From IMG/VR virus record IMGVR_UViG_3300025438_000011: DNA of 64,000 nucleotides; one strand, written 5' to 3'. The notes beneath the pieces are model-generated. The model saw nothing but the letters and a program-made list of their open reading frames with translations. It was not told the DNA's origin and ran no database searches. Source of the stretch: an uncultured virus (IMG/VR IMGVR_UViG_3300025438_000011) (taxonomy: Duplodnaviria > Heunggongvirae > Uroviricota > Caudoviricetes). A program made the translations under genes and the position numbers. This document shows positions 1 through 32,946 of this stretch, piece by piece. Within the stretch, counting starts at the first letter, position 1, and every line of letters begins with the position of its first letter.

Positions 1-1487
1 ATTTGTACATTCTCACCAATTTTGAGGTTTAGAATGTGTGGTTCGAATATAGCTGGTTTTATAGTTAATGAGTCTTCGATGAATTCACCATTCTCAAAAG
101 GTGTTCCGTATTCATATACTGGTCTGATAATTTTGTGTTCGGCTGATACCCAGTGAATTGTACCCTTCACTTTTCTATCACATTCACCAGATTTAGTATC
201 TGGATCATATGTACAGATGATTTCAATAACCTCACCATTTTCATCTTTGATAACAGATTCGGCCTTTATGATATAAGCACCCTTCAATCGAATTTCGTGT
301 CCTAATTTCAATCTGTGATACTTTCTATTAGCCTCTTCTCTGAAGTCTTCTTTTTCGATGTATAGTGTTCCGGTGAATGGTACTTCCCTCGTATTCTCAT
401 CCTCACCCGGCTTATTCTCAATACTCACATATTCAGTGTCACCTGGCCAATTACTTATAGTCACTTTGACTGGATCAAATACACCCATAACCCGGTTGGC
501 TGTCTCATTTAACTCAATTCTAAGACACTCTTCCAATAATTCGATATCTATCTCAGATTCTCTTTTAGAAACACCTACACGCTCACAGAAATCTCTTATG
601 GATCCTGGTGTGAATCCTTTCTTCCTCAAACCTTTCAACGTCAATAGTCTTGGATCATCCCATCCATCAACTTTACCACTATCGACAAGAGCATTGATTT
701 TTCTCTTACTCATAATGTTGTCTTTGATGTTCAGTCTTGAAAATTCTGTTTCTTCTGGTAGATTACCTGTTAGGTCTGAATTATTCAATATCCAGTTATA
801 AAGAGGTCTATGAACCTCAAATTCCAGAGTGCATAATGAGTCAGTGATACCTTCGAAGTAATCACATAATGGGTGAGCCATGTCATACATTGGGTAGATA
901 CACCATTCTTCACCAGTTTTGTGGTGTGGTGTCTTAACTACTCTATACAGTACAGGGTCTCTCATAATCATATTAGGACTAGCCATGTCAATCTTGGCTC
1001 TCAATACAACGGTGTTCTCATCATATCCACCTTCCTTCATCTTCTTGAACATATAAACATTCTCTTCGATTGACCGGCTTCTAGATTTAGAATTTGTGCC
1101 CGGAAGTGTTGTAGTTCCTTTCAACTTAGCCATTTCTTCTGATGTGCCATCCTCAACATAAGCAAGTCCTTTCTTGATTAGTATAAGAGCACATTTATGT
1201 ATATCACTGAAGTAATCTGATGTATATGTTACTTTACTTGGTGTGAAACCCAACCACTCAACATCTTCGATTATCGATTTGATATATTCGTTCTTTTCGG
1301 TTAGTGGGTTTGTATCATCAAACCTAAGGTTACAATCACCATCATATTTCTCAGCTAAGCCAAAATTAAGACACATTGATTTGGCATGTCCAAGATGTAA
1401 TCCTGGTGAATTATTTTCGGGCGGAAAACGAAGTACTATTTTCTCATTACTCAACTTCTTTATTATTTTCTCTTCTATAAAATTCAT
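1..1487 (-). CDS. glnS: Glutaminyl-tRNA synthetase (3' end runs off window)
   Basis: Hand translation from ATG 1487: LRFPPENNSPGLHLGHAK (HIGH motif), NLRFDDTNP, MYDMAHPLCD..EGITDSLCTLEF, MSKRK, RKVKGTIHWVSA. Absent from the ORF track because there is no stop in the window. Confidence 0.95.
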   Translation of the reverse strand, partial: MNFIEEKIIKKLSNEKIVLRFPPENNSPGLHLGHAKSMCLNFGLAEKYDGDCNLRFDDTNPLTEKNEYIKSIIEDVEWLGFTPSKVTYTSDYFSDIHKCALILIKKGLAYVEDGTSEEMAKLKGTTTLPGTNSKSRSRSIEENVYMFKKMKEGGYDENTVVLRAKIDMASPNMIMRDPVLYRVVKTPHHKTGEEWCIYPMYDMAHPLCDYFEGITDSLCTLEFEVHRPLYNWILNNSDLTGNLPEETEFSRLNIKDNIMSKRKINALVDSGKVDGWDDPRLLTLKGLRKKGFTPGSIRDFCERVGVSKRESEIDIELLEECLRIELNETANRVMGVFDPVKVTISNWPGDTEYVSIENKPGEDENTREVPFTGTLYIEKEDFREEANRKYHRLKLGHEIRLKGAYIIKAESVIKDENGEVIEIICTYDPDTKSGECDRKVKGTIHWVSAEHKIIRPVYEYGTPFENGEFIEDSLTIKPAIFEPHILNLKIGENVQ

Positions 1488-1939
1488 TTTAATATATTTA
1501 TTGATTTTTTAACAGATGTATCATCTAGTCCAATCATCGGACTTGTTAATACCAAATGGTCTTTAACTTCACTCGGTAAATCGTTCAATGACTTATCATC
1601 GTCCAGTATTATAAAGGAATTTGTCGATTTGTTTTCATACCAACACATAACCTCTTCGAATCGAGTACCATCAGTTTTCAATTTATCGATATCTGTTACG
1701 ATACCTCTTAGTTTGAAAATCTCATCCCACTCACTCAGACTATACTTAACCTTATGTGTGGTTGTTAGAACAATACAAGCATTAGTTTCACTGATTATCA
1801 GATTCAAGTTCTTAGTAGCCTTTTCGTCAAACGCACAAAAACCATCCTCTAGTAATTCAACTGGTTCCCAAGATTTGTTCTTTATCATAACACCATCAAG
1901 GTCTAATAATATTGTACTTCTATTTTTCATTTTAACCAT
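1484..1939 (-). CDS. HAD-superfamily phosphatase (Swiss-army-knife RNA-repair type)
   Basis: LLDLDGV motif I, IVLTTT motif II, IILDDD motif IV. Confidence 0.75.
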   Translation of the reverse strand: MVKMKNRSTILLDLDGVMIKNKSWEPVELLEDGFCAFDEKATKNLNLIISETNACIVLTTTHKVKYSLSEWDEIFKLRGIVTDIDKLKTDGTRFEEVMCWYENKSTNSFIILDDDKSLNDLPSEVKDHLVLTSPMIGLDDTSVKKSINILK

Positions 1940-2038
1940 TTTTAGTTCGTATATAATGATATGATTCGTACACCGATTAACTACTCATCTATTGATTACG
2001 AATCAGTGATGATACCATTACAATACATTATATTATTG

Positions 2039-2113
2039 TTCCTCTACTAGGGTTCCAACCTAGAATCTTCCGGATCAAAACCGGACGTGTTAAGCAAATT
2101 ACACCATAGAGGA
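2039..2113 (-). tRNA. tRNA-Gln(UUG)
   Basis: Acceptor TCCTCTA/TAGAGGA; anticodon arm TCCGG-TTTTGAT-CCGGA; T arm CTAGG-TTGGAAC-CCTAG; CCA not encoded. Confidence 0.85.
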
Positions 2114-2121
2114 TTATTTTG

Positions 2122-2192
2122 TTGCTCCACTTGGACTCGGACCAAGTTCATCTACTTCAAAGGTAGATATGTTACCCATATACTATAGAGCA
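2122..2192 (-). tRNA. tRNA-Gln(UUG), second copy
   Basis: Acceptor TGCTCTA/TGGAGCA; anticodon arm TCTAC-CTTTGAA-GTAGA; T arm CTTGG-TCCGAGT-CCAAG. Confidence 0.8.
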
Positions 2193-2194
2193 TT

Positions 2195-2228
2195 AAAAAA
2201 CCCGGTTAATCGTTAGATTAACCGGGTT
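2195..2228 (-). terminator. Intrinsic terminator (attenuator) upstream of the tRNA-Gln genes
   Basis: AACCCGGTTAATC-TAAC-GATTAACCGGGTT followed by a T-run on the minus strand. Confidence 0.85.
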
Positions 2229-2255
2229 CATCAATATTATTTGTTAGACAATACT

Positions 2256-2315
2256 CTACCAGTCAATCTCTCGATCGATTTGTTGCTGTTGCTGGTATTG
2301 AGTTACTATTGTCAT
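2256..2315 (-). CDS. Gln-rich attenuation leader peptide MTIVTQYQQQQQIDREIDW
   Basis: 19 codons, 6 of 7 consecutive codons are Gln; lies between an AATATATA motif and the terminator; its 3' end is complementary to the terminator 5' arm. Confidence 0.85.
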   Translation of the reverse strand: MTIVTQYQQQQQIDREIDW

Positions 2316-2329
2316 AATTTCTTCTTCTG

Positions 2330-2337
2330 TATATATT
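2330..2337 (-). promoter_or_regulatory. AATATATA putative phage promoter motif
   Basis: Same motif recurs shortly upstream of many start codons in the window. Confidence 0.5.
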
Positions 2338-2362
2338 GTTTTTTATTCTCTTTGTTTCTTTT

Positions 2363-2629
2363 TCAGTAATAAACTTCTCTCATTTTCTCATATTCATTCA
2401 ATACTTCGTCATGTTGGTACTCAGTATTGAATACAATGTGTTCAAAAAATTTATCAGTAGTTTCTTTACAGAAATCACTTTCTTCGTACTCGTATGGTAA
2501 CTTACCAAATTTTGACATCGTTTCAACAATATCGGTTTTACCTGTTATGATATCATCAACTAATTCACCAACTCGGTTATCAGCTAATCGACATCCAGTT
2601 TCCCAACCTTCTTTTTTATAACTTATCAT
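2363..2629 (-). CDS. Hypothetical protein
   Basis: ORF directly after a TACATTTG (-7) promoter element. Confidence 0.65.
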   Translation of the reverse strand: MISYKKEGWETGCRLADNRVGELVDDIITGKTDIVETMSKFGKLPYEYEESDFCKETTDKFFEHIVFNTEYQHDEVLNEYEKMREVYY

Positions 2630-2870
2630 TGTACAAATGTAAGGATAAATTATGGACTAAAACAAAATAATTATATGAATTACTTCATATTAACCCGAAC
2701 ATTCTTAGTAGTGGGTGTTTTTTGTTTCTTTTCCTCGTTCATGGATACAGTAACTTTCTTAGATAATTTAACTTTGAAATCATTTTCCCAAGGTATAAAC
2801 ATACTACCATCAGCAATTACTTCGAGTCGTATTTTACCCATCTGACCTTCTTTGAGTATATTACTTTTAT

Positions 2871-3188
2871 TTAAGTGAAGTATTGCTCTAATCCTTTCCT
2901 GTTTAAATTATTTACTAGTTCAACGAGTATATCTCCGTGACAAGACTGTTTGGGATTACACCAACACCCTAATGTTTTTCCTTTGAGTTCGTGTAGGTCT
3001 TTTAGAAGATATTGTCCCTCACCATTCACCAACCATTCTTTGTGAGAATCAATTGATTCTTTTCGTGTACTTACTCGATACTGTGCTGTTGAATTCTTCT
3101 TGTATGAGAAGGGACTTCCCCATTTTGAGGATCTATCTATCATCAGGTCGAATGATTCTTTCCGATGATGTACTCTTTTACACTTCAT
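2871..3188 (-). CDS. DUF4326-family protein
   Basis: SKWGSPF and LKGKTLGCWC.P..CHGDIL motifs. Confidence 0.8.
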   Translation of the reverse strand: MKCKRVHHRKESFDLMIDRSSKWGSPFSYKKNSTAQYRVSTRKESIDSHKEWLVNGEGQYLLKDLHELKGKTLGCWCNPKQSCHGDILVELVNNLNRKGLEQYFT

Positions 3189-3558
3189 AGTAATACTTCT
3201 CTCCTATCACTAATTTATCAATTTCACTCGGATTAAACTCTGTAAAAGTTGAGTCGATAGAATATGCACCCATCCCACATAGGTGGTTGTGTATAAAATC
3301 TTGTGAACACATTTCACCATAGTAGTCCTCTTCATCTTCTGTGAACTTATCACTACCTACTGCCAGTGGCCAGTCAAATTCATTGAAGTTAGAATCGAAA
3401 TATCTGATGTTCAGTTGTAGGGTATCTCTCGATACTGTACTTTCAATATTTTGTATTTCAATGAATTTCATCACTGTTGGAAAATGATTAGCTAACATCT
3501 TGATTAGTAATCCCATTATTCTAAATTTCGTAAATTCTATATTTTTTTCATTTTTCAT
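3178..3558 (-). CDS. Hypothetical protein
   Basis: ORF overlapping its neighbour in a minus-strand run. Confidence 0.65.
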   Translation of the reverse strand: MKNEKNIEFTKFRIMGLLIKMLANHFPTVMKFIEIQNIESTVSRDTLQLNIRYFDSNFNEFDWPLAVGSDKFTEDEEDYYGEMCSQDFIHNHLCGMGAYSIDSTFTEFNPSEIDKLVIGEKYYYEV

Positions 3559-3589
3559 TTTAATATATCTGTTAATTTCGTATCTCGTC

Positions 3590-3707
3590 TTTCTGACTTA
3601 CTACAATAAATGATAGTATGAACTACACACAAGCTAAAGACTTGTGTGTTTTACGTTCCGTCATATAAATTATTCTAATACTATCATTTAATGTAGTAAG
3701 TCAGAAA
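3590..3707. repeat. 28-bp inverted repeat enclosing a mini-element
   Basis: 3590-3617 versus 3680-3707, 1 mismatch. Confidence 0.85.
3618..3664 (-). mobile_element. 47-bp IS200/IS605-derived mini-element (PATE-like), copy 1
   Basis: ATGACGGAACGTAAAACACACAAGTCTTTAGCTTGTGTGTAGTTCAT immediately after TTTAT. Confidence 0.85.
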
Positions 3708-3758
3708 TTAGTACTACTTTCATTATAAAATTATTTCAACTAATGTACGTATAATATT

Positions 3759-4178
3759 TCAATTATCAATATGTAATACTAATAACTCAGATAGTTTCAT
3801 ATTCCGTTGGTGTTGATCTATTTTACACTGACAGAACTCACCAACTATTCCTATAATTATACTTTCTGACAAATCAATTTTGATTTTGTTCATAACATCA
3901 GTATTGTATGAGAGAAAAAATCTATTATATTTTGTGTTGAAAGTATACCAACTGTATAGGTATCCTTTTTGTATAAGGTCATGTGTATCGATTTGACATT
4001 CCATAACCCTTGATAAGTTTATTTTGGATGAATTTACCTTCAAACTGTCCCGGTACTCATCTATACTCACCCAATTTGATGATTTATACTTAATATATTC
4101 AATAGCGGGTTTAATCCCAGGAGTGAGTTTGGTTTTAGGAATATGTGTGTTGTAAAGAAAATCCATTTCTACTATCAT
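3759..4178 (-). CDS. Hypothetical protein with C-terminal RNMKLSELL tag
   Basis: ORF; shared C-terminal motif. Confidence 0.65.
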   Translation of the reverse strand: MIVEMDFLYNTHIPKTKLTPGIKPAIEYIKYKSSNWVSIDEYRDSLKVNSSKINLSRVMECQIDTHDLIQKGYLYSWYTFNTKYNRFFLSYNTDVMNKIKIDLSESIIIGIVGEFCQCKIDQHQRNMKLSELLVLHIDN

Positions 4179-4567
4179 CCTAGTAGAGAATTTAATTTGT
4201 AGTCCCTCTGTAATGGTTTCAAAACAGAATTGATAATTAACTCTCGTTCTGTTGTCATTTCTGCCAAAGTTACTGTGTGCTCACTCAATACCTTGATATA
4301 CTCTGGGTGTATGGTCAAGAACTCACTAACCGATACAGCAGGATATGGTTCATGGTTAATATCACAGAATATTTTAGAATATCCAACCATCAATGCTGTT
4401 AATTCAGCATCCTCGAAATTAAGAGCGATGTTCGGGTAAGTTATGTCTCGTGTACTACCCAAAAAAAGGAAGTGATTGAACTCATTTCGATATACATATC
4501 CCGGTTTTAGGTGATCATCTACCGCCAAGTGTTCATCTATTTGTTCTTGTGTTAAAGTACTTGCCAT
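4175..4567 (-). CDS. Hypothetical protein with C-terminal RDYKLNSLL tag
   Basis: ORF; shared C-terminal motif. Confidence 0.7.
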   Translation of the reverse strand: MASTLTQEQIDEHLAVDDHLKPGYVYRNEFNHFLFLGSTRDITYPNIALNFEDAELTALMVGYSKIFCDINHEPYPAVSVSEFLTIHPEYIKVLSEHTVTLAEMTTERELIINSVLKPLQRDYKLNSLLG

Positions 4568-4640
4568 GTGTTTGTTTATTTTGTGGATAACTATTGTGAT
4601 AAAAATTATCTTTATAAGATGATAATGTTTTTAAGATTAA

Positions 4641-4955
4641 TTAGAAGAAATCAACAATATACTGGATACATGATACTTCGAAGTTGTTATAGTTTCTAAT
4701 AAGATCCAATCTTTTAGAAGAATCTTGGATATCACATACAACATCTTCTGTTGTGATGAATAGTTTCCATCCATTATCTGTAAAGATTTCAACTGTTCGT
4801 GTGTGTCCTGATGAGTTACTATCAGTATGATAGATTAGTTTGAATTTTCTATCTTTAATAGAGAAGGTGTGACGTGCTGTGATTGTTGTAGTATAACCAT
4901 TGCTTTTTTCGTTAGTAGTTACTTTCTTCGAGATTGTTGTTAGTGTCTTAGCCAT
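4641..4955 (-). CDS. Hypothetical protein
   Basis: ORF downstream of a host-type promoter. Confidence 0.7.
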   Translation of the reverse strand: MAKTLTTISKKVTTNEKSNGYTTTITARHTFSIKDRKFKLIYHTDSNSSGHTRTVEIFTDNGWKLFITTEDVVCDIQDSSKRLDLIRNYNNFEVSCIQYIVDFF

Positions 4956-4973
4956 GTGTTTATTTGTTTTATG

Positions 4974-5005
4974 TAAATGTACGGATAACTTACCGACGGG
5001 CCAAA
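4974..5005 (-). promoter_or_regulatory. Bacteroidota-type sigma70 promoter (-33 TTTG, 20 nt, -7 TACATTTA)
   Basis: TTTGGCCCGTCGG..CGTACATTTA; near-duplicate at 5620-5651. Confidence 0.7.
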
Positions 5006-5016
5006 TTTAGGTATTA

Positions 5017-5268
5017 TTAACCACCTATTAGTTTATCAAGTGTGTGATTACGCCTATCCTTCTTAGTTTCGAAGTATTCTATAATCGTTTTTCTTAACAA
5101 CCTATTCTTAGACCGGGACAGAATATCCATCCTTTTCAGTGTTATTTTATCATAATCCGGTGGAACGCTACTAACAACATGGTCAATTCTGTATACCTCA
5201 CCAACCGAATATACCTTAGTGTTACGGACAAAGGTTTTGATTACTGTTACTTCTTCTCCAATATTCAT
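5017..5268 (-). CDS. Small hypothetical protein with C-terminal RNHTLDKLI tag
   Basis: ORF; resembles 7815, 8101 and 35725. Confidence 0.7.
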   Translation of the reverse strand: MNIGEEVTVIKTFVRNTKVYSVGEVYRIDHVVSSVPPDYDKITLKRMDILSRSKNRLLRKTIIEYFETKKDRRNHTLDKLIGG

Positions 5269-5615
5269 GTTTGTTTTTGGTGTCTTTTTGATAAGTAATC
5301 ATTTATATCTTCCATAGTGTGTAGTGGTGGTGGTGATGGTATTGCATATCTACCCAGTGGGTTGATACTCTTATATTTCATAACCAGTACTGTACTTCCT
5401 TTACGAATAAAGTGTTTTACGACTTCGTAGTGTTTATCCGTTTTGGTATCTACTATACCCTCTTCTACTACATAATCTGGTAACCAACTGTCATTGAATG
5501 TGACTTCGAGATTGCCGTTCAGAGGATTTAATGGGAAGAGTTCTTTATCTTCGTATAAATCATCTGACGAATCTCTGTAATATCCTACTTTAATTGGGTA
5601 ACTGATTCTACTCAT
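5265..5615 (-). CDS. Hypothetical protein
   Basis: ORF a few nt after a -7 element. Confidence 0.7.
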   Translation of the reverse strand: MSRISYPIKVGYYRDSSDDLYEDKELFPLNPLNGNLEVTFNDSWLPDYVVEEGIVDTKTDKHYEVVKHFIRKGSTVLVMKYKSINPLGRYAIPSPPPLHTMEDINDYLSKRHQKQT

Positions 5616-5619
5616 AGTA

Positions 5620-5651
5620 TAAATGTACGAAGAAAGTTCCGACGGGCCAAA
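5620..5651 (-). promoter_or_regulatory. Bacteroidota-type sigma70 promoter
   Basis: TTTGGCCCGTCGG..CGTACATTTA, 20-nt spacer. Confidence 0.7.
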
Positions 5652-5753
5652 TTTAAATAAATCGGTCTTTTGTTCTAGGTATTAATGAACATTCTTCGAC
5701 CGTTCTTAAATTCAACAGTTGTTTGACTGTTTAAAATTTAATTATATTTTACT

Positions 5754-6620
5754 CTAATCCCATTTATGTTTTGCTCCTTTTATCCATCCATCATTTAGGT
5801 AATTATGTAATTCTTCCTTTTTTATTGGTTTACTTTTCTTAATCTCCATATTATATACCCAACAAGTACCATATTGTGAATTTTTCTCACCTTTTTGGTG
5901 TATGGAATTTTTCTCACCTATCTTTCTTTTTGATTCTTTTGTGTGTTTTTTACCTTTCCATAGAGGAATAAGTTCTCCATTTAAAAACCTGAGATCATCT
6001 TTACAAACATAATGTATATTACCATCTATATCTTTGGTTGTGACCATACCATCCGATATATATCGTAATTCACCATTTAAATATCTAATATCATCAACTT
6101 TAACTGATGAAATATTACCATCTACATCTTTAACAGGTACCATTCCTTTGGTTGTTCCGACTAATTCACCACTTAAGTATCTATCATCGTCAATATTGAC
6201 CTTTAAATATTCACCAGCACTATTTTTGACGGTGGTCATACCTTTTGTGATTCCGACCAATTTACCAGATAAATATCTTTTATCACTTTTATGTACTCTC
6301 ATACAATCACCAGACTCGTCCCTGACCATTATTGTATCGACTGTATTAAAAGTTCCACCTATTATTATATTATATGTATCGTCCCTTTTTATGAATTCTC
6401 TATTAACTAATTTAGATTCCTTCTCTAACATATCACTTTTATTATCAAAATTATATAGAATTATTTTATCAAAATTTTCTTTCCCAAATTCATCAATTGC
6501 CTTTTTAATATTAGTACCACTACCCATATAACTATCGTTTATATTTTTGGTTATGTGACACCCAATGTATATTTTATCATCAACTCTATTGGTTATTTGA
6601 TATACGATATAATTTTTCAT
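5754..6620 (-). CDS. Free-standing GIY-YIG homing endonuclease (Seg-like)
   Basis: YIVYQITN..KIYIG..YMGSG..E..YN; four internal D.RYLSGELVG repeats; NUMOD3-like WKGKKHTKESKRKIG. Confidence 0.85.
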   Translation of the reverse strand: MKNYIVYQITNRVDDKIYIGCHITKNINDSYMGSGTNIKKAIDEFGKENFDKIILYNFDNKSDMLEKESKLVNREFIKRDDTYNIIIGGTFNTVDTIMVRDESGDCMRVHKSDKRYLSGKLVGITKGMTTVKNSAGEYLKVNIDDDRYLSGELVGTTKGMVPVKDVDGNISSVKVDDIRYLNGELRYISDGMVTTKDIDGNIHYVCKDDLRFLNGELIPLWKGKKHTKESKRKIGEKNSIHQKGEKNSQYGTCWVYNMEIKKSKPIKKEELHNYLNDGWIKGAKHKWD

Positions 6621-6716
6621 AATTAATATACTATTTTTTAGTATATATAAAAGTCCGATATTACTTTTTATCGGAGTAAATGTAGAGTCTCTAATATTTG
6701 AACCATTGTACTGTTG

Positions 6717-6792
6717 TCGGGGTGGCCGGATTCGAACCCACCTGATATCTCACGCGACAAGTGAGTAGACACGCCAAGCATCTCCCAGGACC
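6717..6792 (-). pseudogene. Chimeric tRNA: 5' tRNA-Asp(GUC) joined to a tRNA-Pro-like 3' end
   Basis: Intact anticodon arm CTCAC-TTGTCGC-GTGAG; acceptor GGTCCTG does not pair with CACCCCG; T stem broken across GGTTCGAATCC. Confidence 0.7.
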
Positions 6793-6801
6793 ATATTTTT
6801 G

Positions 6802-6875
6802 TGCGGGGTGTGGGATTCGAACCCACGACCACTCCAGTCCAAGTGGAGTAAACATCCTGACCGTTATCACCCTAC
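6802..6875 (-). tRNA. tRNA-Pro(UGG)
   Basis: Anticodon arm CTCCA-CTTGGAC-TGGAG; T arm GTGGG-TTCGAAT-CCCAC; acceptor GTAGGGT/ACCCCGC with one A-C mismatch. Confidence 0.75.
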
Positions 6876-6881
6876 ATTTTT

Positions 6882-6935
6882 GTCTAGTGGATGGGATTCG
6901 AACCCATCAGTTAAGAATTGCCATTCATCACTAGA
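6882..6935 (-). ncRNA. 54-nt tRNA-like RNA lacking an anticodon arm
   Basis: Perfect acceptor TCTAGTG/CACTAGA, T arm GATGGG-TTCGAAT-CCCATC, only one small hairpin GAAT-GGCA-ATTC between them. Confidence 0.6.
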
Positions 6936-6945
6936 TTTTACGCAT

Positions 6946-6981
6946 AAAAAAACTCAGTTAATCTAATTGACTAACTGAGTT
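6946..6981 (-). terminator. Intrinsic terminator (attenuator) upstream of the Pro/Asp tRNA cluster
   Basis: AACTCAGTTAGTC-AATTA-GATTAACTGAGTT plus T-run. Confidence 0.85.
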
Positions 6982-7008
6982 GTTATATGGGTTTGTATTA
7001 TTTAATGA

Positions 7009-7122
7009 TTATCTATAATCATCTGTTTCAAACTTTTTAACGCAGTTAGTCCTAATAGGATCGGGATCCTGATCGGTAACTCTCGGAAGAGGTTGAACTG
7101 ATATGTTAAAAAGTGTTTTCAT
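7009..7122 (-). CDS. Pro/Asp-rich leader peptide MKTLFNISVQPLPRVTDQDPDPIRTNCVKKFETDDYR
   Basis: 37 codons after AATATATA (7130-7137); contains GACTAACTGCGTT, complementary to the terminator 5' arm. Confidence 0.75.
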   Translation of the reverse strand: MKTLFNISVQPLPRVTDQDPDPIRTNCVKKFETDDYR

Positions 7123-7168
7123 CTGTTTCTATATATTAGGTTTTGTTTGTCCCTTTTCTTTTACACTA

Positions 7169-7199
7169 CAAAGGTAGTAAAGTTTACTTAACCACCAAA
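7169..7199 (-). promoter_or_regulatory. Consensus Bacteroidota sigma70 promoter
   Basis: TTTG-N19-TACCTTTG upstream of the leader and tRNA cluster. Confidence 0.7.
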
Positions 7200-7519: not shown

Positions 7520-7549
7520 GAATTATATATTAAATACAAAAATCATTAA

Positions 7550-11541: not shown

Positions 11542-11587
11542 AAAGATAGTAAAAATCTACACGTTTTCATATTTAATATATAAGATT

Positions 11588-19800: not shown

Positions 19801-19822
19801 TTATTGGTTTAATATATAGTCT

Positions 19823-30065: not shown

Positions 30066-31154
30066 ATGAGTCAGTGGAAAGTAAGTAAAGAAAAAATAGA
30101 GATATTCCCACATGGGAATGCTGATACATTATCATTGGGTAAGGTTGGATCGTACCAAGTTGTGGTACAGTCTGGTATTTACAAAGATGGTGATACTGTT
30201 GTGTTTGCACCTGAGAAATCAGTGCTTACTGGACAGATAAAAACAGAATTTGAAAAATACCTTGTTGGTCCAGAAAATGATCGAGTAAAGGGTGTTCGTC
30301 TTCGGGGTGAGATTTCAAGTGGAATTCTTATTCCAAAACATTTACTTGTGGGTATCGAAGATGCTGAGATTGGTGAGGATGTATCTGAGAAATTGGGTAT
30401 ATCACATTACGAACCACCAATTCCACAACAATTGGCTGGCAAAGTTAGGTCTTTTGAGATGAAATACATTGGATCACACGATTGTGAGCAAGTTGGTGTT
30501 TATGTTAATGACCTCATTCCTGGTGAAAGAATTGTTGTGAGTGAGAAAGTTCATGGATCACAATTTATTCTTGGTCACGATGTTGATAAGAATGAAACAA
30601 TTGTATCATCTAAGGGTATGTTAAAGAAAGGACTTGTTCTTGAAGAATCTGACGATAACACTTACTGGATTGCTGCTAAGAATGATGGTATCATTGAAAA
30701 AATCCGAGAACATTATGATACTGGCGTTGTTCAAGTATTTGGTGAAGTTGTTCCTGTACAGGGTGGTTACAATTACGGCCAAACAAAACCAACGGCTAGA
30801 CTTTTCGATGTACGTGTGAATAGTGTTTCTATTCCATATGATGTTGTTCCGGAGCCATTCAGAGAGATGTGGGTTCCTATCATCTATGATGGTGAGATTA
30901 ACTTGATTGAAAATGAAGTGGTTCTTTTTTCTGATCCAGAAAGAGGGATTCATAAAACTAAAATAACCTACACATTACCTGATGAAATCACAAGAATGTG
31001 TAAGGGTATGGAAACAGTTTCTGGGAAGCAAGTTCATATCAGAGAGGGTGTTGTTGTTAGACCATACATCGATAGAGATGCTAGGGATGGTAACAAACTT
31101 AGATTGAAAATAATCAATCCTAAGTACAAAGAAAGCGGTGAGGAAATATCTTAG
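30066..31154 (+). CDS. ATP-dependent RNA ligase, DRB0094/Rnl5 family
   Basis: N-terminal HGNADTL OB-like module, RLRGEISSG, motif I SEKVHGS, FGE, REGVVV, LKIINP. Confidence 0.88.
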   Translation: MSQWKVSKEKIEIFPHGNADTLSLGKVGSYQVVVQSGIYKDGDTVVFAPEKSVLTGQIKTEFEKYLVGPENDRVKGVRLRGEISSGILIPKHLLVGIEDAEIGEDVSEKLGISHYEPPIPQQLAGKVRSFEMKYIGSHDCEQVGVYVNDLIPGERIVVSEKVHGSQFILGHDVDKNETIVSSKGMLKKGLVLEESDDNTYWIAAKNDGIIEKIREHYDTGVVQVFGEVVPVQGGYNYGQTKPTARLFDVRVNSVSIPYDVVPEPFREMWVPIIYDGEINLIENEVVLFSDPERGIHKTKITYTLPDEITRMCKGMETVSGKQVHIREGVVVRPYIDRDARDGNKLRLKIINPKYKESGEEIS

Positions 31155-31605: not shown

Positions 31606-32946
31606 ATACCTGAGCGTAAAACACACAAGTCTTTAGCTTGTGTGATGTAAGCGAATAAAAACTTTTCACAAATATTAAAGTATTTTACAAAAAAAATAAA
31701 AAATGTAAAAAATGACTTTTAAAGTTTAATATATACTTTTAATGAAAACAATATTTAAGTCATTTAAGTTTAGAATATATCCAACAAAAGATCAAGAAAT
31801 CTTGTTGGCTAAACATTTTGGGGCAAATAGATTTGTTTTTAATTACTATCTAAACAAAAGAAAAGAAAGTTATCTCGGTGAAGATAAGAAATCACTAAAT
31901 TATTATGATAATGCTAATGATTTAACACAATTAAAGAAAAATGAAGATTATATTTGGTTAAAAGAAATCAATAGTCAATCACTTCAATCATCAATTAGAA
32001 ATTTAGACACAGCTTATATGAAATTTTTTAGGAAACAAACTAAATTCCCAAGATTTAAGTCAAAATATGATAGACAATCTTTTAAAATACCACAAAATGT
32101 GTTAATTAAAGATAATAAATTAAATATACCTAAATTTAAAGAAGGAATTAAAATTAATTTACATCAAGAAATAGAAGGTAAAATAGCCTTTGCTACCATA
32201 TCTAAATCAACAACAGACAAATATTATGTATCAATTACATGTGAAATAAATCATAACCCTTTTGGAAAAACTGGTAGTGAAATAGGAATTGATACTGGAA
32301 TTAAAGACTTAGCTATATTAAGTGATGGTACTACATATGAAAATATTAAAACACTTAAAAACAATTTAAAGAAATTAAAATATGAACAGAGACAACTATC
32401 AAAGAAAGTTAAAGGAAGTTCATCAAGAAATAAACAAAGAAAAACCCTTGCTATAATTCATGAAAAAATAACCAATGTAAGAAAAGATTATTTACATAAA
32501 ATTTCTACTGAAATCATCAAAAACCACGATGTAATTTGTGTAGAGGATTTAGCTATAAAAAATATGATGAAAAATCATAAGTTAGCACAAGCATTTTCGG
32601 ATGTTAGTTTAGGTTCATTCTATTCTATGTTAGAATATAAAGCTAAATGGAATGACAAACAATATGTTAAAATTGATAGGTTTTTCCCATCATCTAAAAT
32701 GTGTTTTAAATGTGGATGGATAAATCAAGATTTAACATTAAAAGATAGAGAATGGACTTGCCCTTCATGTAACACAACACACGATAGAGATTTTAATGCG
32801 GCTAAAAACATATTAAAACAAGGTTTAAAAATACTATCTGGATTAGGGACTAATTCGGATATAAAACAAAAACAGGTGGAGTCGTTGTCGTTAGACGAGG
32901 CTATGAAACCTGAAACACATTAGTCTTTAGCTAATGTGTAGTTCAT
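31606..32946 (+). mobile_element. IS200/IS605-family (IS1341-type, tnpB-only) element
   Basis: TTTAT target at 31601-05; left hairpin CACACAAG-TCTTTAG-CTTGTGTG; right hairpin ACACATTAG-TCTTTAG-CTAATGTGT; ends TTCAT; no tnpA. Confidence 0.9.
31742..32923 (+). CDS. tnpB: RNA-guided endonuclease TnpB
   Basis: KFRIYPT N-terminus; RuvC GIDTG, VEDL, DRDFNAA intact; CFKC..CPSC zinc finger. Confidence 0.95.
   Translation: MKTIFKSFKFRIYPTKDQEILLAKHFGANRFVFNYYLNKRKESYLGEDKKSLNYYDNANDLTQLKKNEDYIWLKEINSQSLQSSIRNLDTAYMKFFRKQTKFPRFKSKYDRQSFKIPQNVLIKDNKLNIPKFKEGIKINLHQEIEGKIAFATISKSTTDKYYVSITCEINHNPFGKTGSEIGIDTGIKDLAILSDGTTYENIKTLKNNLKKLKYEQRQLSKKVKGSSSRNKQRKTLAIIHEKITNVRKDYLHKISTEIIKNHDVICVEDLAIKNMMKNHKLAQAFSDVSLGSFYSMLEYKAKWNDKQYVKIDRFFPSSKMCFKCGWINQDLTLKDREWTCPSCNTTHDRDFNAAKNILKQGLKILSGLGTNSDIKQKQVESLSLDEAMKPETH

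What the first reader, a model, noticed from the sequence alone, without database searches (positions are those of the whole stretch)
2195..7137. The two attenuators are paralogous: a reprogrammable tRNA-supply control cassette
Seen: terminator stems AACCCGGTTAATC/GATTAACCGGGTT and AACTCAGTTAGTC/GATTAACTGAGTT are homologous with compensatory changes (C-G to T-A, G-C to A-T). Each antiterminator tracks its own stem, and both leaders start 7-15 nt after AATATATA. Inference: one cassette was duplicated and retuned by changing leader codons, so each tRNA cluster is expressed on demand. This predicts more amino-acid-specific cassettes elsewhere in the genome.
Basis: partly seen in the sequence, partly recalled or inferred. 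Interest (0 to 1): 0.88.

Follow-up and report, generated by a model that had tools for sequence, protein, structure and literature searches.

The report
Codon-matched attenuators gating phage tRNA genes
A huge phage puts a tiny test gene, written in the codons of particular amino acids, and a switchable transcription stop in front of the tRNA genes (and one charging enzyme) for those same amino acids, so it probably makes more of them only when ribosomes run short.

Summary
On the minus strand there are two complete leader-peptide attenuators. U1 (2337-2195) has a 19-codon leader with six Gln codons. It precedes two tRNA-Gln genes, an RNA-repair-type HAD gene and glutaminyl-tRNA synthetase. 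U2 (7176-6946) has a 37-codon leader with an Asp/Gln/Pro codon block. It precedes a tRNA-like remnant, a weak tRNA-Pro and a degenerate tRNA-Asp.

I curated 40 such units.
- **Codon match:** leader codons match the tRNAs behind them. 0 of 100,000 shuffled pairings reach the observed match, and the true pairing is the single best of 120 to 5040 permutations in each of four genomes.
- **Reading frame:** the match holds only in the leader's own frame, in 38 of 39 units.
- **Antiterminators:** they track their own terminators (0 of 100,000 shuffles).
- **Coverage:** 186 of 201 called tRNAs in four genomes sit behind such units.

The mechanism is classical ribosome-mediated attenuation. The payload (tRNA genes plus cognate synthetases, in a phage) appears unpublished in the 8 full-text searches I ran. 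This scan has noted the same thing on other DNA (33 AI notes). No expression data exist, so regulation is inferred. Paralogy of the two units is plausible but only partly shown.

The parts
7169..7176 (-). TAnnTTTG promoter-like element (Bacteroidota -7 type, name recalled), 46 nt before the U2 leader ATG
   Evidence: The element ends 25-75 nt before the ATG in 21 of 40 units, against 5.4% of random positions.
7130..7137 (-). AATATATA motif, 7 nt before the U2 leader ATG
   Evidence: ATATATA ends 0-20 nt before the ATG in 23 of 40 units, against 1.3% of random positions. It is also found before ordinary genes.
7009..7122 (-). U2 leader ORF, 37 codons
7057..7074 (-). U2 regulatory block: codons Asp-Gln-Asp-Pro-Asp-Pro. 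Two more Pro codons lie upstream.
   Evidence: The block is conserved in 9 orthologous units.
7038..7052 (-). U2 segment 2 (antiterminator strand), inside the leader ORF. It pairs with the terminator's 5' arm.
   Evidence: -14.5 kcal/mol against a mean of -7.2 for foreign arms; 84% of cells paired in 9 orthologues, no covariation
6946..6981 (-). U2 intrinsic terminator: 13-bp stem, 5-nt loop, T7
   Evidence: (6 of 13 pairs show compensatory changes among 9 orthologues)
6882..6935 (-). tRNA-like remnant with an acceptor stem and T arm but no anticodon arm
   Evidence: Read. It is not called by ARAGORN or Rfam as a tRNA.
6801..6875 (-). tRNA-Pro(UGG), weak
   Evidence: ARAGORN; Rfam 26.8 bits, below the gathering score of 29
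6716..6788 (-). Degenerate tRNA-Asp(GUC) whose acceptor stem does not pair
   Evidence: ARAGORN calls it only at relaxed threshold. There is no Rfam match at E<=10. It aligns to the intact tRNA-Asp of L001.
2330..2337 (-). AATATATA motif, 14 nt before the U1 leader ATG
2256..2315 (-). U1 leader ORF: 19 codons, six of them Gln, ending in TAG
2280..2300 (-). U1 regulatory codons: one Gln codon, a Tyr codon, then five consecutive Gln codons (CAA/CAG)
2292..2313 (-). U1 segment 1. It pairs with segment 2 and the bases after the stop codon in the ribosome-free fold.
   Evidence: MFE -44.4 kcal/mol, z -7.89
2258..2269 (-). U1 segment 2 (antiterminator strand), covering the last codons of the leader up to the stop codon
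   Evidence: -12.8 against -7.4. In 12 aligned Gln-type units, RNAalifold's consensus structure is this 2:3 helix.
2195..2228 (-). U1 intrinsic terminator: 13-bp stem, 4-nt loop, T6
2122..2192 (-). tRNA-Gln(UUG), first copy, starting 2 nt after the T-run
   Evidence: 49.6 bits
2038..2113 (-). tRNA-Gln(UUG), second copy
   Evidence: 57.8 bits
1484..1939 (-). 151-aa HAD_SAK_2 protein (HAD domain of 'Swiss Army Knife' RNA-repair proteins), same strand, between the tRNAs and glnS
   Evidence: E 1.9e-23. A 149-aa ORF sits in the same place in L002 and was not scanned against Pfam.
3..1487 (-). Glutaminyl-tRNA synthetase; its C-terminus is cut off by the window edge
   Evidence: tRNA-synt_1c E 2.7e-92 plus the anticodon-binding domain; annotated glnS in phage D6 and Acinetobacter phage records

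Best explanation
Both units are ribosome-mediated (leader-peptide) transcription attenuators of the trp/his type. Their payload is tRNA genes for the amino acids spelled in the leader and, for U1, also the cognate synthetase GlnRS.

How it works:
1. Transcription starts upstream and must pass an intrinsic terminator that ends 2 nt (U1) before the first tRNA. No other route to the tRNAs exists.
2. If the leader is not translated, or is translated smoothly to its stop codon, segment 2 is unavailable. It is either paired with segment 1 or covered by the ribosome. The terminator then forms and little tRNA is made.
3. If the ribosome stalls on the Gln codons (U1) or the Asp/Gln/Pro codons (U2) because the charged cognate tRNA is scarce, it uncovers segment 2.
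4. Segment 2 then pairs with the terminator's 5' arm, the polymerase reads through, and the tRNAs (and GlnRS) are made.
5. The product, charged tRNA, relieves the stall. The result is a negative-feedback supply loop for each amino-acid group.

What is shown: the sequence anatomy, its conservation, the frame-specific codon-to-tRNA match, and the tracking of terminators by antiterminators.

What is inferred: translation of the leaders, stalling, and read-through.

In this particular phage the U2 payload looks decayed, although its switch is intact.
For: **Anatomy in the window.** In U1's ribosome-free fold, segment 2 is sequestered by segment 1 and the terminator is intact. The alternative 2:3 hairpins are -13.2 kcal/mol (U1) and -17.9 (U2). 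The terminators are -19.6 and -16.0.

**Family anatomy.** This covers the 39 units whose terminator meets my rule.
- The terminator is in the MFE in 37 of 39.
- Segment 2 is paired with the upstream leader in 34 of 39.
- Segment 2 lies inside the ORF or within 3 nt of its stop in 34 of 39.
- Mean E(2:3) is -15.7 against E(3:4) -16.0.
- The stop codon lies 20-37 nt before the stem in 39 of 39.
- The first tRNA is within 15 nt of the T-run in 25 of 38.

**Codon match.** 0 of 100,000 shuffled pairings reach the observed value at either the amino-acid or the codon level. Exact within-genome permutations give 1 of 120, 1 of 5040, 1 of 5040 and 1 of 5040.

**Frame.** The cognate fraction is 0.404 (411/1018) in the leader frame, against 0.169 and 0.139 in the other two. 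Frame 0 is highest in 38 of 39 units.

**Antiterminator tracking.** The mean is -9.96 kcal/mol with the unit's own arm, against -6.98 +/- 0.33 for shuffled pairs, with 0 of 100,000 as low. Within genomes the counts are 7/120, 17/5040, 6/5040 and 2/5040.

**Blind rule-based test on two further genomes.**
- All 6 units in G006 match (0.418 against 0.207; 148 of 100,000 shuffles as high).
- All 3 units in the more distant G007 match, with different amino-acid groupings. Three units give no statistical power (16,784 of 100,000).

**Synthetases inside cognate units.**
- GlnRS follows the Gln unit in the window and its relatives.
- In L002 the Gln unit precedes GlnRS with no tRNA at all.
- SerRS and a HisRS fragment lie in units whose leaders hold Ser and His codons.

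**Specificity.** A Gln-run leader before a terminator upstream of GlnRS occurs in 12 of 77 viral GlnRS loci. All 12 have GlnRS at least 55% identical to the window's. It occurs in none of the other 65.
Against: - No RNA evidence exists. No listed sequencing run that holds this DNA is RNA, so translation of the leaders and read-through are untested.
- Within the Asp/Pro family the antiterminator helix is conserved in sequence and shows no covariation (0 pairs with change on both sides). Support for it comes only from comparison across families.
- One orthologous unit (L011:6259) has a replaced terminator and almost no antiterminator pairing (-3.0 kcal/mol). Four others are weak, at -5.3 to -6.2.
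- One Trp unit has a single Trp codon (L010:6983).
- Large clusters for common amino acids (Asn/Ile/Leu/Val/Thr) 'serve' many leaders, so a unit's own cluster ranks only second for 14 of 26 leaders in the within-genome table.
- The 40 leaders were curated by eye from ORF lists. Three anticodons were read by eye.
- U2's payload is poor. tRNA-Pro scores 26.8 bits (below 29), tRNA-Asp has no Rfam match, and the first element has no anticodon arm.
- Units in different phages are homologous, so pooled statistics overcount. The within-genome permutations are the fair test.
Confidence: 0.85

Rival explanations
1. These are plain terminators or processing hairpins. The hairpins end upstream transcription units or mark RNase processing sites. 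The small ORFs are chance frames in AT-rich DNA, and the tRNAs are made by constitutive leak-through.
For: Terminators with the same A-rich/GC/T-run look also occur after ordinary genes in these loci. The AATATATA motif is a general gene-start motif.
Against: The codon-to-tRNA match is frame-specific and beats all permutations. The stop-to-stem spacing is a constant 20-37 nt. Antiterminators track their terminators. In 25 of 38 units there is no room for a promoter between the T-run and the tRNA.
Confidence: 0.03
2. The sensing is at the RNA level, like a T-box. Uncharged tRNA would bind the codon run in the leader RNA directly and stabilise the antiterminator, without translation.
For: The codons complementary to the downstream anticodons are clustered, and the payload concerns tRNA and aaRS, as in T-box regulons.
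Against: There is no T-box or any other Rfam leader match, in the window at E<=1 or in 12 loci at gathering score. Cognate codons are enriched only in the frame set by an ATG and closed by a stop at fixed distance from the terminator. Leaders hold up to 15-20 cognate codons for up to 11 amino acids, which no single tRNA contact could read.
Confidence: 0.04
3. The switch senses translation but has a different output. The leader's translation could control Rho-dependent polarity, RNA stability or processing of the tRNA precursor. Alternatively it could report general translation stress rather than a specific amino acid, as recalled for the whiB7 uORF attenuator.
For: Multivalent leaders covering 6-11 amino acids approach a general sensor (L013:8706, L019:1011). 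Conserved N-terminal residues are shared by all types.
Against: Single-amino-acid leaders (Gln, Lys) with matching single-identity clusters argue for specificity. Canonical intrinsic terminators and mutually exclusive helices are present.
Confidence: 0.06
4. This rival concerns U2 only. In this phage, U2 is a relic. The switch is still intact but its tRNAs are decaying, so it no longer supplies Asp/Pro decoding.
For: tRNA-Pro scores 26.8 bits, against 64-66 bits for orthologues. The acceptor strands of tRNA-Asp do not pair, while L001's do. The first element lacks an anticodon arm. The leader is 4-8 codons longer than 8 aligned orthologues.
Against: The terminator, the antiterminator and a window-specific 1:2 pairing are all intact and very stable. 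Unusual phage tRNAs can score poorly and still work.
Confidence: 0.35

Closest known systems
Leader-peptide attenuators of amino-acid operons (E. coli trpL, hisL, leuL, pheL; multivalent thrL and ilvGMEDA leaders). Named from my own knowledge.
   Same: Both have a short translated leader rich in the regulatory codons, four segments with 1:2, 2:3 and 3:4 pairings, an intrinsic terminator, and multivalent versions that sense several amino acids.
   Different: The payload here is tRNA genes, the sensed molecule itself, not biosynthetic enzymes. The system is encoded by a phage and is used 6-8 times per genome to cover over 90% of its tRNAs. There is no sequence match to any Rfam leader family.
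E. coli pheST attenuator (pheM leader) controlling phenylalanyl-tRNA synthetase. Recalled, not read here.
   Same: In both, a leader-peptide attenuator controls an aminoacyl-tRNA synthetase through codons of its own amino acid. This matches the GlnRS part of U1 and the SerRS/HisRS cases in relatives.
   Different: Here the tRNA genes come first in the same unit. The host is probably Bacteroidota and the replicon is viral.
T-box riboswitches
   Same: Both monitor tRNA charging to control aaRS genes through a terminator/antiterminator choice.
   Different: The T-box reads one specifier codon by direct tRNA binding, without a ribosome. No T-box match was found here, and the signal is frame-dependent.
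whiB7 (wblC) uORF attenuator of Actinobacteria.
   Same: Both are a uORF plus a terminator switch that reports ribosome slowing.
   Different: That system senses general translation stress and drives a transcription factor. These units are matched codon by codon to their own payload.
Phage tRNA clusters in general (for example T4). Recalled.
   Same: These are also blocks of tRNA genes co-transcribed and processed from a precursor, interrupted by homing endonuclease genes.
   Different: I know of no leader-peptide control reported for them. I found none in 8 full-text searches.

Membership tests
Ribosome-mediated (leader-peptide) transcription attenuator | Short ORF with its own start codon directly upstream of the regulated genes | tested here: met
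   U1 is at 2315-2256 (19 codons) and U2 at 7122-7009 (37 codons). The 40 units have leaders of 15-46 codons.
Ribosome-mediated (leader-peptide) transcription attenuator | Leader enriched, in frame, for codons of the amino acid(s) that the payload concerns | tested here: met
   0 of 100,000 shuffles reach the observed match, and the true pairing is the best of all permutations in 4 genomes; the cognate fraction is 0.404 in frame 0, against 0.169 and 0.139.
Ribosome-mediated (leader-peptide) transcription attenuator | Intrinsic terminator between leader and payload | tested here: met
   Stems are 13 bp followed by T6/T7. The terminator is in the MFE in 37 of 39 units.
Ribosome-mediated (leader-peptide) transcription attenuator | Mutually exclusive antiterminator helix that uses the terminator's 5' arm | tested here: met
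   (own arm against foreign arms, 0 of 100,000). (RNAalifold consensus of 12 Gln units is this helix). (84% paired, but no covariation within the Asp/Pro family).
Ribosome-mediated (leader-peptide) transcription attenuator | Anti-antiterminator (1:2) pairing in untranslated RNA, with the stop codon placed so that a terminating ribosome masks segment 2 | tested here: met
   Segment 2 pairs upstream in 34 of 39 units and lies in or at the end of the ORF in 34 of 39.
Ribosome-mediated (leader-peptide) transcription attenuator | Read-through rises when the cognate charged tRNA is limiting | not testable with these tools
   No RNA run is listed for this DNA, and there is no cultured host.
T-box riboswitch (Rfam RF00230; accession recalled) | Match to the T-box covariance model | tested here: not met
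   No such match among all Rfam families, in the window at E<=1 or in 12 loci at gathering score.
Rfam enterobacterial leader families (His, Trp, Leu, Thr, Phe leaders) | Match to any of these covariance models | tested here: not met
   Searches list only tRNA and chance microRNA/tmRNA hits.
tRNA (payload of U1) | Rfam tRNA model above the gathering score, and an ARAGORN call | tested here: met
   57.8 and 49.6 bits. Both are tRNA-Gln(UUG).
tRNA (payload of U2) | Rfam tRNA model above the gathering score | tested here: not met
   tRNA-Pro scores 26.8 bits, below 29. There is no match for the Asp gene or the first element at E<=10. ARAGORN calls Pro at default settings and Asp only at relaxed threshold.
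Glutaminyl-tRNA synthetase | Class I E/Q catalytic domain plus anticodon-binding domain | tested here: met
   PF00749 E 2.7e-92 and PF03950 E 7.9e-26. tblastn matches genes annotated glnS. Gln versus Glu specificity was not tested separately.

The most novel reading that the evidence does not exclude
The units form a codon-resolved damage and shortage sensor network. By reading test tracks of each codon group, the phage detects the loss of particular host tRNAs. Causes could include host anticodon nucleases, host shut-off, or its own AT-rich codon demand. It answers by switching on only the matching replacement tRNAs, their synthetases and RNA-repair functions. The link to repair rests on a HAD domain of RNA-repair proteins that sits inside the Gln unit between the tRNAs and GlnRS in the window, with an ORF of like size in the same place in L002, and on an RNA ligase encoded in the window. 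This would be a counter-defence circuit built from attenuators, covering over 90% of 40-68 tRNA genes per genome.
Probability: 0.3. Interest if true: 0.95.

Novelty: new variant of a known kind. Interest (0 to 1): 0.85.

Why it matters
Huge phages carry dozens of tRNAs and several synthetases, and how this private translation kit is regulated is unknown. The paper that described the nearest published relatives has no occurrence of 'attenuat', 'leader' or 'terminator' in its main text (passages only; supplements not read).

If these units work as their anatomy says, tRNA supply is set by direct feedback from ribosomes reading test codons. That is a control logic long known for amino-acid synthesis, but I could not find it described for tRNA genes.

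It makes several questions testable:
- why phages carry particular tRNAs;
- whether they respond to tRNA-cleaving host defences;
- how tRNA clusters and their sensors co-evolve.

It also offers compact parts whose specificity is set simply by the codons in a 15-46-codon leader.

Tried and rejected
- **Close relatives in GenBank phages.** Megablast of the region found none.
- **The window's own genome** is not held. The prediction of 'more cassettes elsewhere in the genome' could therefore only be tested in relatives.
- **Expression data.** No RNA holder is listed among the 24 runs that hold the DNA.
The units are too diverse in sequence, so I used structure-anchored tests instead.
- **A recalled precedent, a Phe-codon leader before the E. 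coli tRNA-Phe genes pheV/pheU,** was checked in K-12. The 105-110 nt upstream of both genes hold no such leader, so I dropped it. The 1985 paper I had in mind is not held.
- **AATATATA as a cassette-specific signal** was rejected, because it also precedes ordinary genes.
- **Recent duplication of U1 and U2** was rejected. Each has orthologues in distant relatives, and outside the upstream AATATATA motif and the terminator the two units share only scattered matches.
- **Covariation within the Asp/Pro antiterminator** was not found.
- **A related 344-kb phage (G004)** has one weak tRNA match and no attenuator before its GlnRS. The units go with the tRNAs, not with GlnRS as such.
I redid the step with coordinates only.

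Full report
**What is in the window.** The genes of this region run on the minus strand.

U1:
- an AATATATA motif at 2337-2330;
- a 19-codon ORF at 2315-2256, with one Gln codon, a Tyr codon and then five consecutive Gln codons (2300-2280);
- a 13-bp/T6 terminator at 2228-2195;
- two tRNA-Gln(UUG) genes starting 2 nt later (2192-2122 and 2113-2038);
- a 151-aa protein with the HAD domain of 'Swiss Army Knife' RNA-repair proteins (1939-1484);
- a glutaminyl-tRNA synthetase that runs off the window (1487-3).

U2:
- a TAnnTTTG element at 7176-7169;
- AATATATA at 7137-7130;
- a 37-codon ORF at 7122-7009, with an Asp-Gln-Asp-Pro-Asp-Pro block (7074-7057);
- a 13-bp/T7 terminator at 6981-6946;
- a 54-nt tRNA-like remnant without an anticodon arm;
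- tRNA-Pro(UGG) at 6875-6801;
- a degenerate tRNA-Asp(GUC) at 6788-6716;
- a GIY-YIG homing endonuclease gene after these.

**The observation.** The stems are as quoted in the finding. They differ by two compensatory pairs and one wobble. Each leader carries, near its 3' end, a strand complementary to the 5' arm of its own terminator. Both leaders start 14 and 7 nt after AATATATA. Both units fold much better than shuffles, with z -7.9 and -5.6. In the ribosome-free fold of U1, segment 2 is held by the start of the ORF and by a small internal hairpin, and the terminator is intact. This is the classical 1:2 plus 3:4 state.

**What the phage is.** The window is 32% G+C. It encodes a 3102-aa protein, a sigma-like factor, an NAD ligase and an RNA ligase.
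- Its GlnRS finds relatives on IMG/VR contigs of 108-519 kb.
- It also matches GenBank records LR756502.1 (642,428 bp) and LR745206.1 (634,780 bp).
- These lengths match two of the four largest genomes of Al-Shayeb et al. 2020. That paper places them in the 'Mahaphage' clade with predicted Bacteroidetes hosts, and reports up to 67 tRNAs and 15 synthetases per genome (PMC7162821; passages read).
- The identity of the records with that paper is inferred from length only.
- The DNA occurs in salt-lake metagenomes.

**The prediction tested.** I fetched the tRNA-rich stretches of four relatives (41-59 Rfam tRNA matches each), the loci around GlnRS and the two GenBank records. Nearly every tRNA cluster begins with a strong hairpin and T-run, preceded by a small ORF. 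I curated 40 units.

Leader composition mirrors the cluster behind it:
- Gln runs before Gln tRNAs: 11 units, plus one (L002) that directly precedes GlnRS with no tRNA;
- Asp/Pro/Gln blocks before Asp/Pro(/Gln) clusters;
- a run of five Lys codons before five tRNA-Lys;
- Ser/Arg blocks before Ser and Arg tRNAs;
- Tyr/Glu, Ile/Gly/Ala, Phe/His/Trp/Lys/Ser and Asn/Ile/Leu/Val/Thr/Met(/Cys/Arg) blocks before the same sets.

The cognate residues form one contiguous block in the middle of each leader.

**Statistics.**
- **Match of leader to cluster.**

| Level | Observed | Shuffled pairings | Shuffles as high |
|---|---|---|---|
| Amino acid | 0.39 | 0.166 +/- 0.019 | 0 of 100,000 |
| Codon (wobble rules) | 0.343 | 0.135 +/- 0.017 | 0 of 100,000 |

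- **Within-genome permutations.** Units in different phages are homologous, so the fair test is within one genome. The true pairing is the single best of 120, 5040, 5040 and 5040 permutations in G001, G002, G003 and G005.
- **Reading frame.** The cognate fraction is 0.404 in the leader frame, against 0.169 and 0.139 in the other two. Frame 0 is highest in 38 of 39 units. This argues for reading by ribosomes, not by RNA-RNA contact.
- **Antiterminator tracking.** The mean is -9.96 kcal/mol with a unit's own arm, against -6.98 +/- 0.33 for shuffled pairs, with 0 of 100,000 as low. Within genomes the counts are 7/120, 17/5040, 6/5040 and 2/5040.
- **Architecture.**
  - The terminator is in the MFE in 37 of 39 units.
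  - Segment 2 is paired upstream in 34 of 39.
  - Segment 2 lies within the ORF in 34 of 39.
  - The 2:3 and 3:4 helices are of equal mean stability.
  - The stop codon lies 20-37 nt before the stem in 39 of 39.
  - The first tRNA is within 15 nt of the T-run in 25 of 38.
- **Coverage.** 186 of 201 called tRNAs in the fetched stretches of four genomes lie behind a unit (48/51, 55/60, 37/40, 46/50). The orphans are mostly single genes, among them Met(CAT) and CUA-anticodon tRNAs with their own promoter-like sites.

**Blind replication.** I applied fixed rules to two genomes not used before: a terminator within 150 nt of a tRNA, and the longest ATG ORF of 12-46 codons ending 18-40 nt before the stem.
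- G006 (508 kb) gave six units, all matched (0.418 against 0.207; 148 of 100,000 shuffles as high).
- G007 (363 kb, GlnRS only 51% identical) gave three units. It has different groupings (Pro/Gln/Tyr/Thr/Gly/Lys; Cys/Val/Leu/Met; Phe/Glu/Gln/Asp/Ala), and all three leaders spell their own set. Three units carry no statistical weight.
- Only 31 of 54 tRNAs in G007 fall behind rule-picked units, and other clusters there look different.

**Range and controls.**
- Among 77 viral GlnRS loci, a Gln-run leader before a terminator occurs in 12. All 12 are at or above 55% GlnRS identity to the window, and none of the other 65 has one.
- A related phage with almost no tRNAs has none.
- Within the Asp/Pro family, the terminator shows compensatory changes at 6 of 13 pairs. 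The antiterminator is conserved without covariation.
- One orthologue (L011) has lost the antiterminator pairing.

**Paralogy.**
- The units share a promoter-like element (21 of 40, against 5.4% at random positions).
- They share the ATATATA motif (23 of 40, against 1.3%).
- They share an N-terminal peptide signature (31 of 40, against 15 of 357 ordinary ORFs; the pattern was chosen post hoc).
- They share spacing and a terminator style.

This fits descent from one cassette, or strong common constraint. The two window units align mainly at the motif and the terminator. Their terminator likeness is in the top 7% of between-type pairs. Each has orthologues in distant relatives. So they are at most old paralogues.

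Retuning is supported by fusions and splits. Two genomes have separate Tyr/Glu and Ile/Gly/Ala units, and two others have one merged cluster with a merged leader. A Phe/His leader lacks Trp codons where the cluster lacks tRNA-Trp and has one where tRNA-Trp is present.

**Mechanism.** See Best explanation. Sequence anatomy and comparative statistics are shown. Translation, stalling and read-through are inferred.

**Caveat for this phage.** U2's payload is poor, so U2 may be a relic here.

**Novelty.**
- No Rfam leader or T-box family matches.
- Eight full-text searches returned no paper describing leader-peptide control of tRNA genes. I saw listings and abstracts only, except for passages of PMC7162821 and PMC3082878.
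- Subscription literature and supplements were not searched.
- This scan has noted the same kind of unit before on other DNA: 33 AI notes, one of them with the same Asp/Pro-then-Gln-then-glnS layout. Those notes are not independent evidence.

Noticed in passing
window 3616-3670 (+) and 11543-11489 (-): There are two copies of a roughly 55-nt conserved element built around a 9-bp hairpin with a 7-nt loop. The copies differ by one compensatory pair. Copy A sits inside a larger palindrome of about 115 nt. ARAGORN at relaxed threshold calls it a tRNA-Phe(AAA), which is probably wrong. Its function is unknown.
   Followed up: partly
window 7524-7532 (-), 11574-11582 (+), 19810-19818 (+), 31727-31735 (+): TAATATATA lies 4-7 nt before the ATG of ordinary genes of 89, 759, 274 and 393 codons. 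It is either a phage promoter giving near-leaderless mRNAs or a translation-start signal. The two are not distinguished here.
   Followed up: partly
window 1484-1939 (-) and 30066-31154 (+): A HAD domain of RNA-repair proteins is encoded inside the Gln unit, between the tRNAs and GlnRS. L002 has a 149-aa ORF in the same place, which was not scanned. The window also encodes an RNA ligase-like protein. This is a possible link between tRNA supply and tRNA repair.
   Followed up: no
window 6882-6935 (-): This is an acceptor-stem-plus-T-arm 'minihelix' with no anticodon arm, directly after the U2 terminator. Several relatives have unexplained gaps of 100-150 nt at the same place. It is either a processing handle or a decayed tRNA.
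   Followed up: partly
L026:933-1005, L027:913-986: Relatives G003 and G005 carry a single tRNA with anticodon CUA, which reads TAG. A TAnnTTTG-type site sits before the G003 copy (L026). Neither copy has a leader or terminator. The U1 leaders of the window and of L001 end in TAG. Whether TAG is ever read through there was not examined.
   Followed up: no
L028:3548-4816, L013:2607-3251: A seryl-tRNA synthetase and a histidyl-tRNA synthetase fragment lie inside tRNA units whose leaders contain Ser and His codons. Synthetases are therefore co-regulated with cognate tRNAs beyond the Gln case.
   Followed up: partly
window 5754-6620 (-); L005, L010, L012, L017, L028 between tRNAs: GIY-YIG and HNH homing endonuclease genes interrupt the tRNA clusters behind the attenuators. 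These selfish genes would therefore be transcribed under the same control.
   Followed up: no
L018:1075-1147, L028:1135-1294: tRNA-Met(CAT) genes have the same promoter-like site but no leader ORF or terminator (the ATATATA motif precedes only the L018 copy). If they are initiator tRNAs, an elongation-stall sensor could not read them. Their identity was not checked.
   Followed up: no
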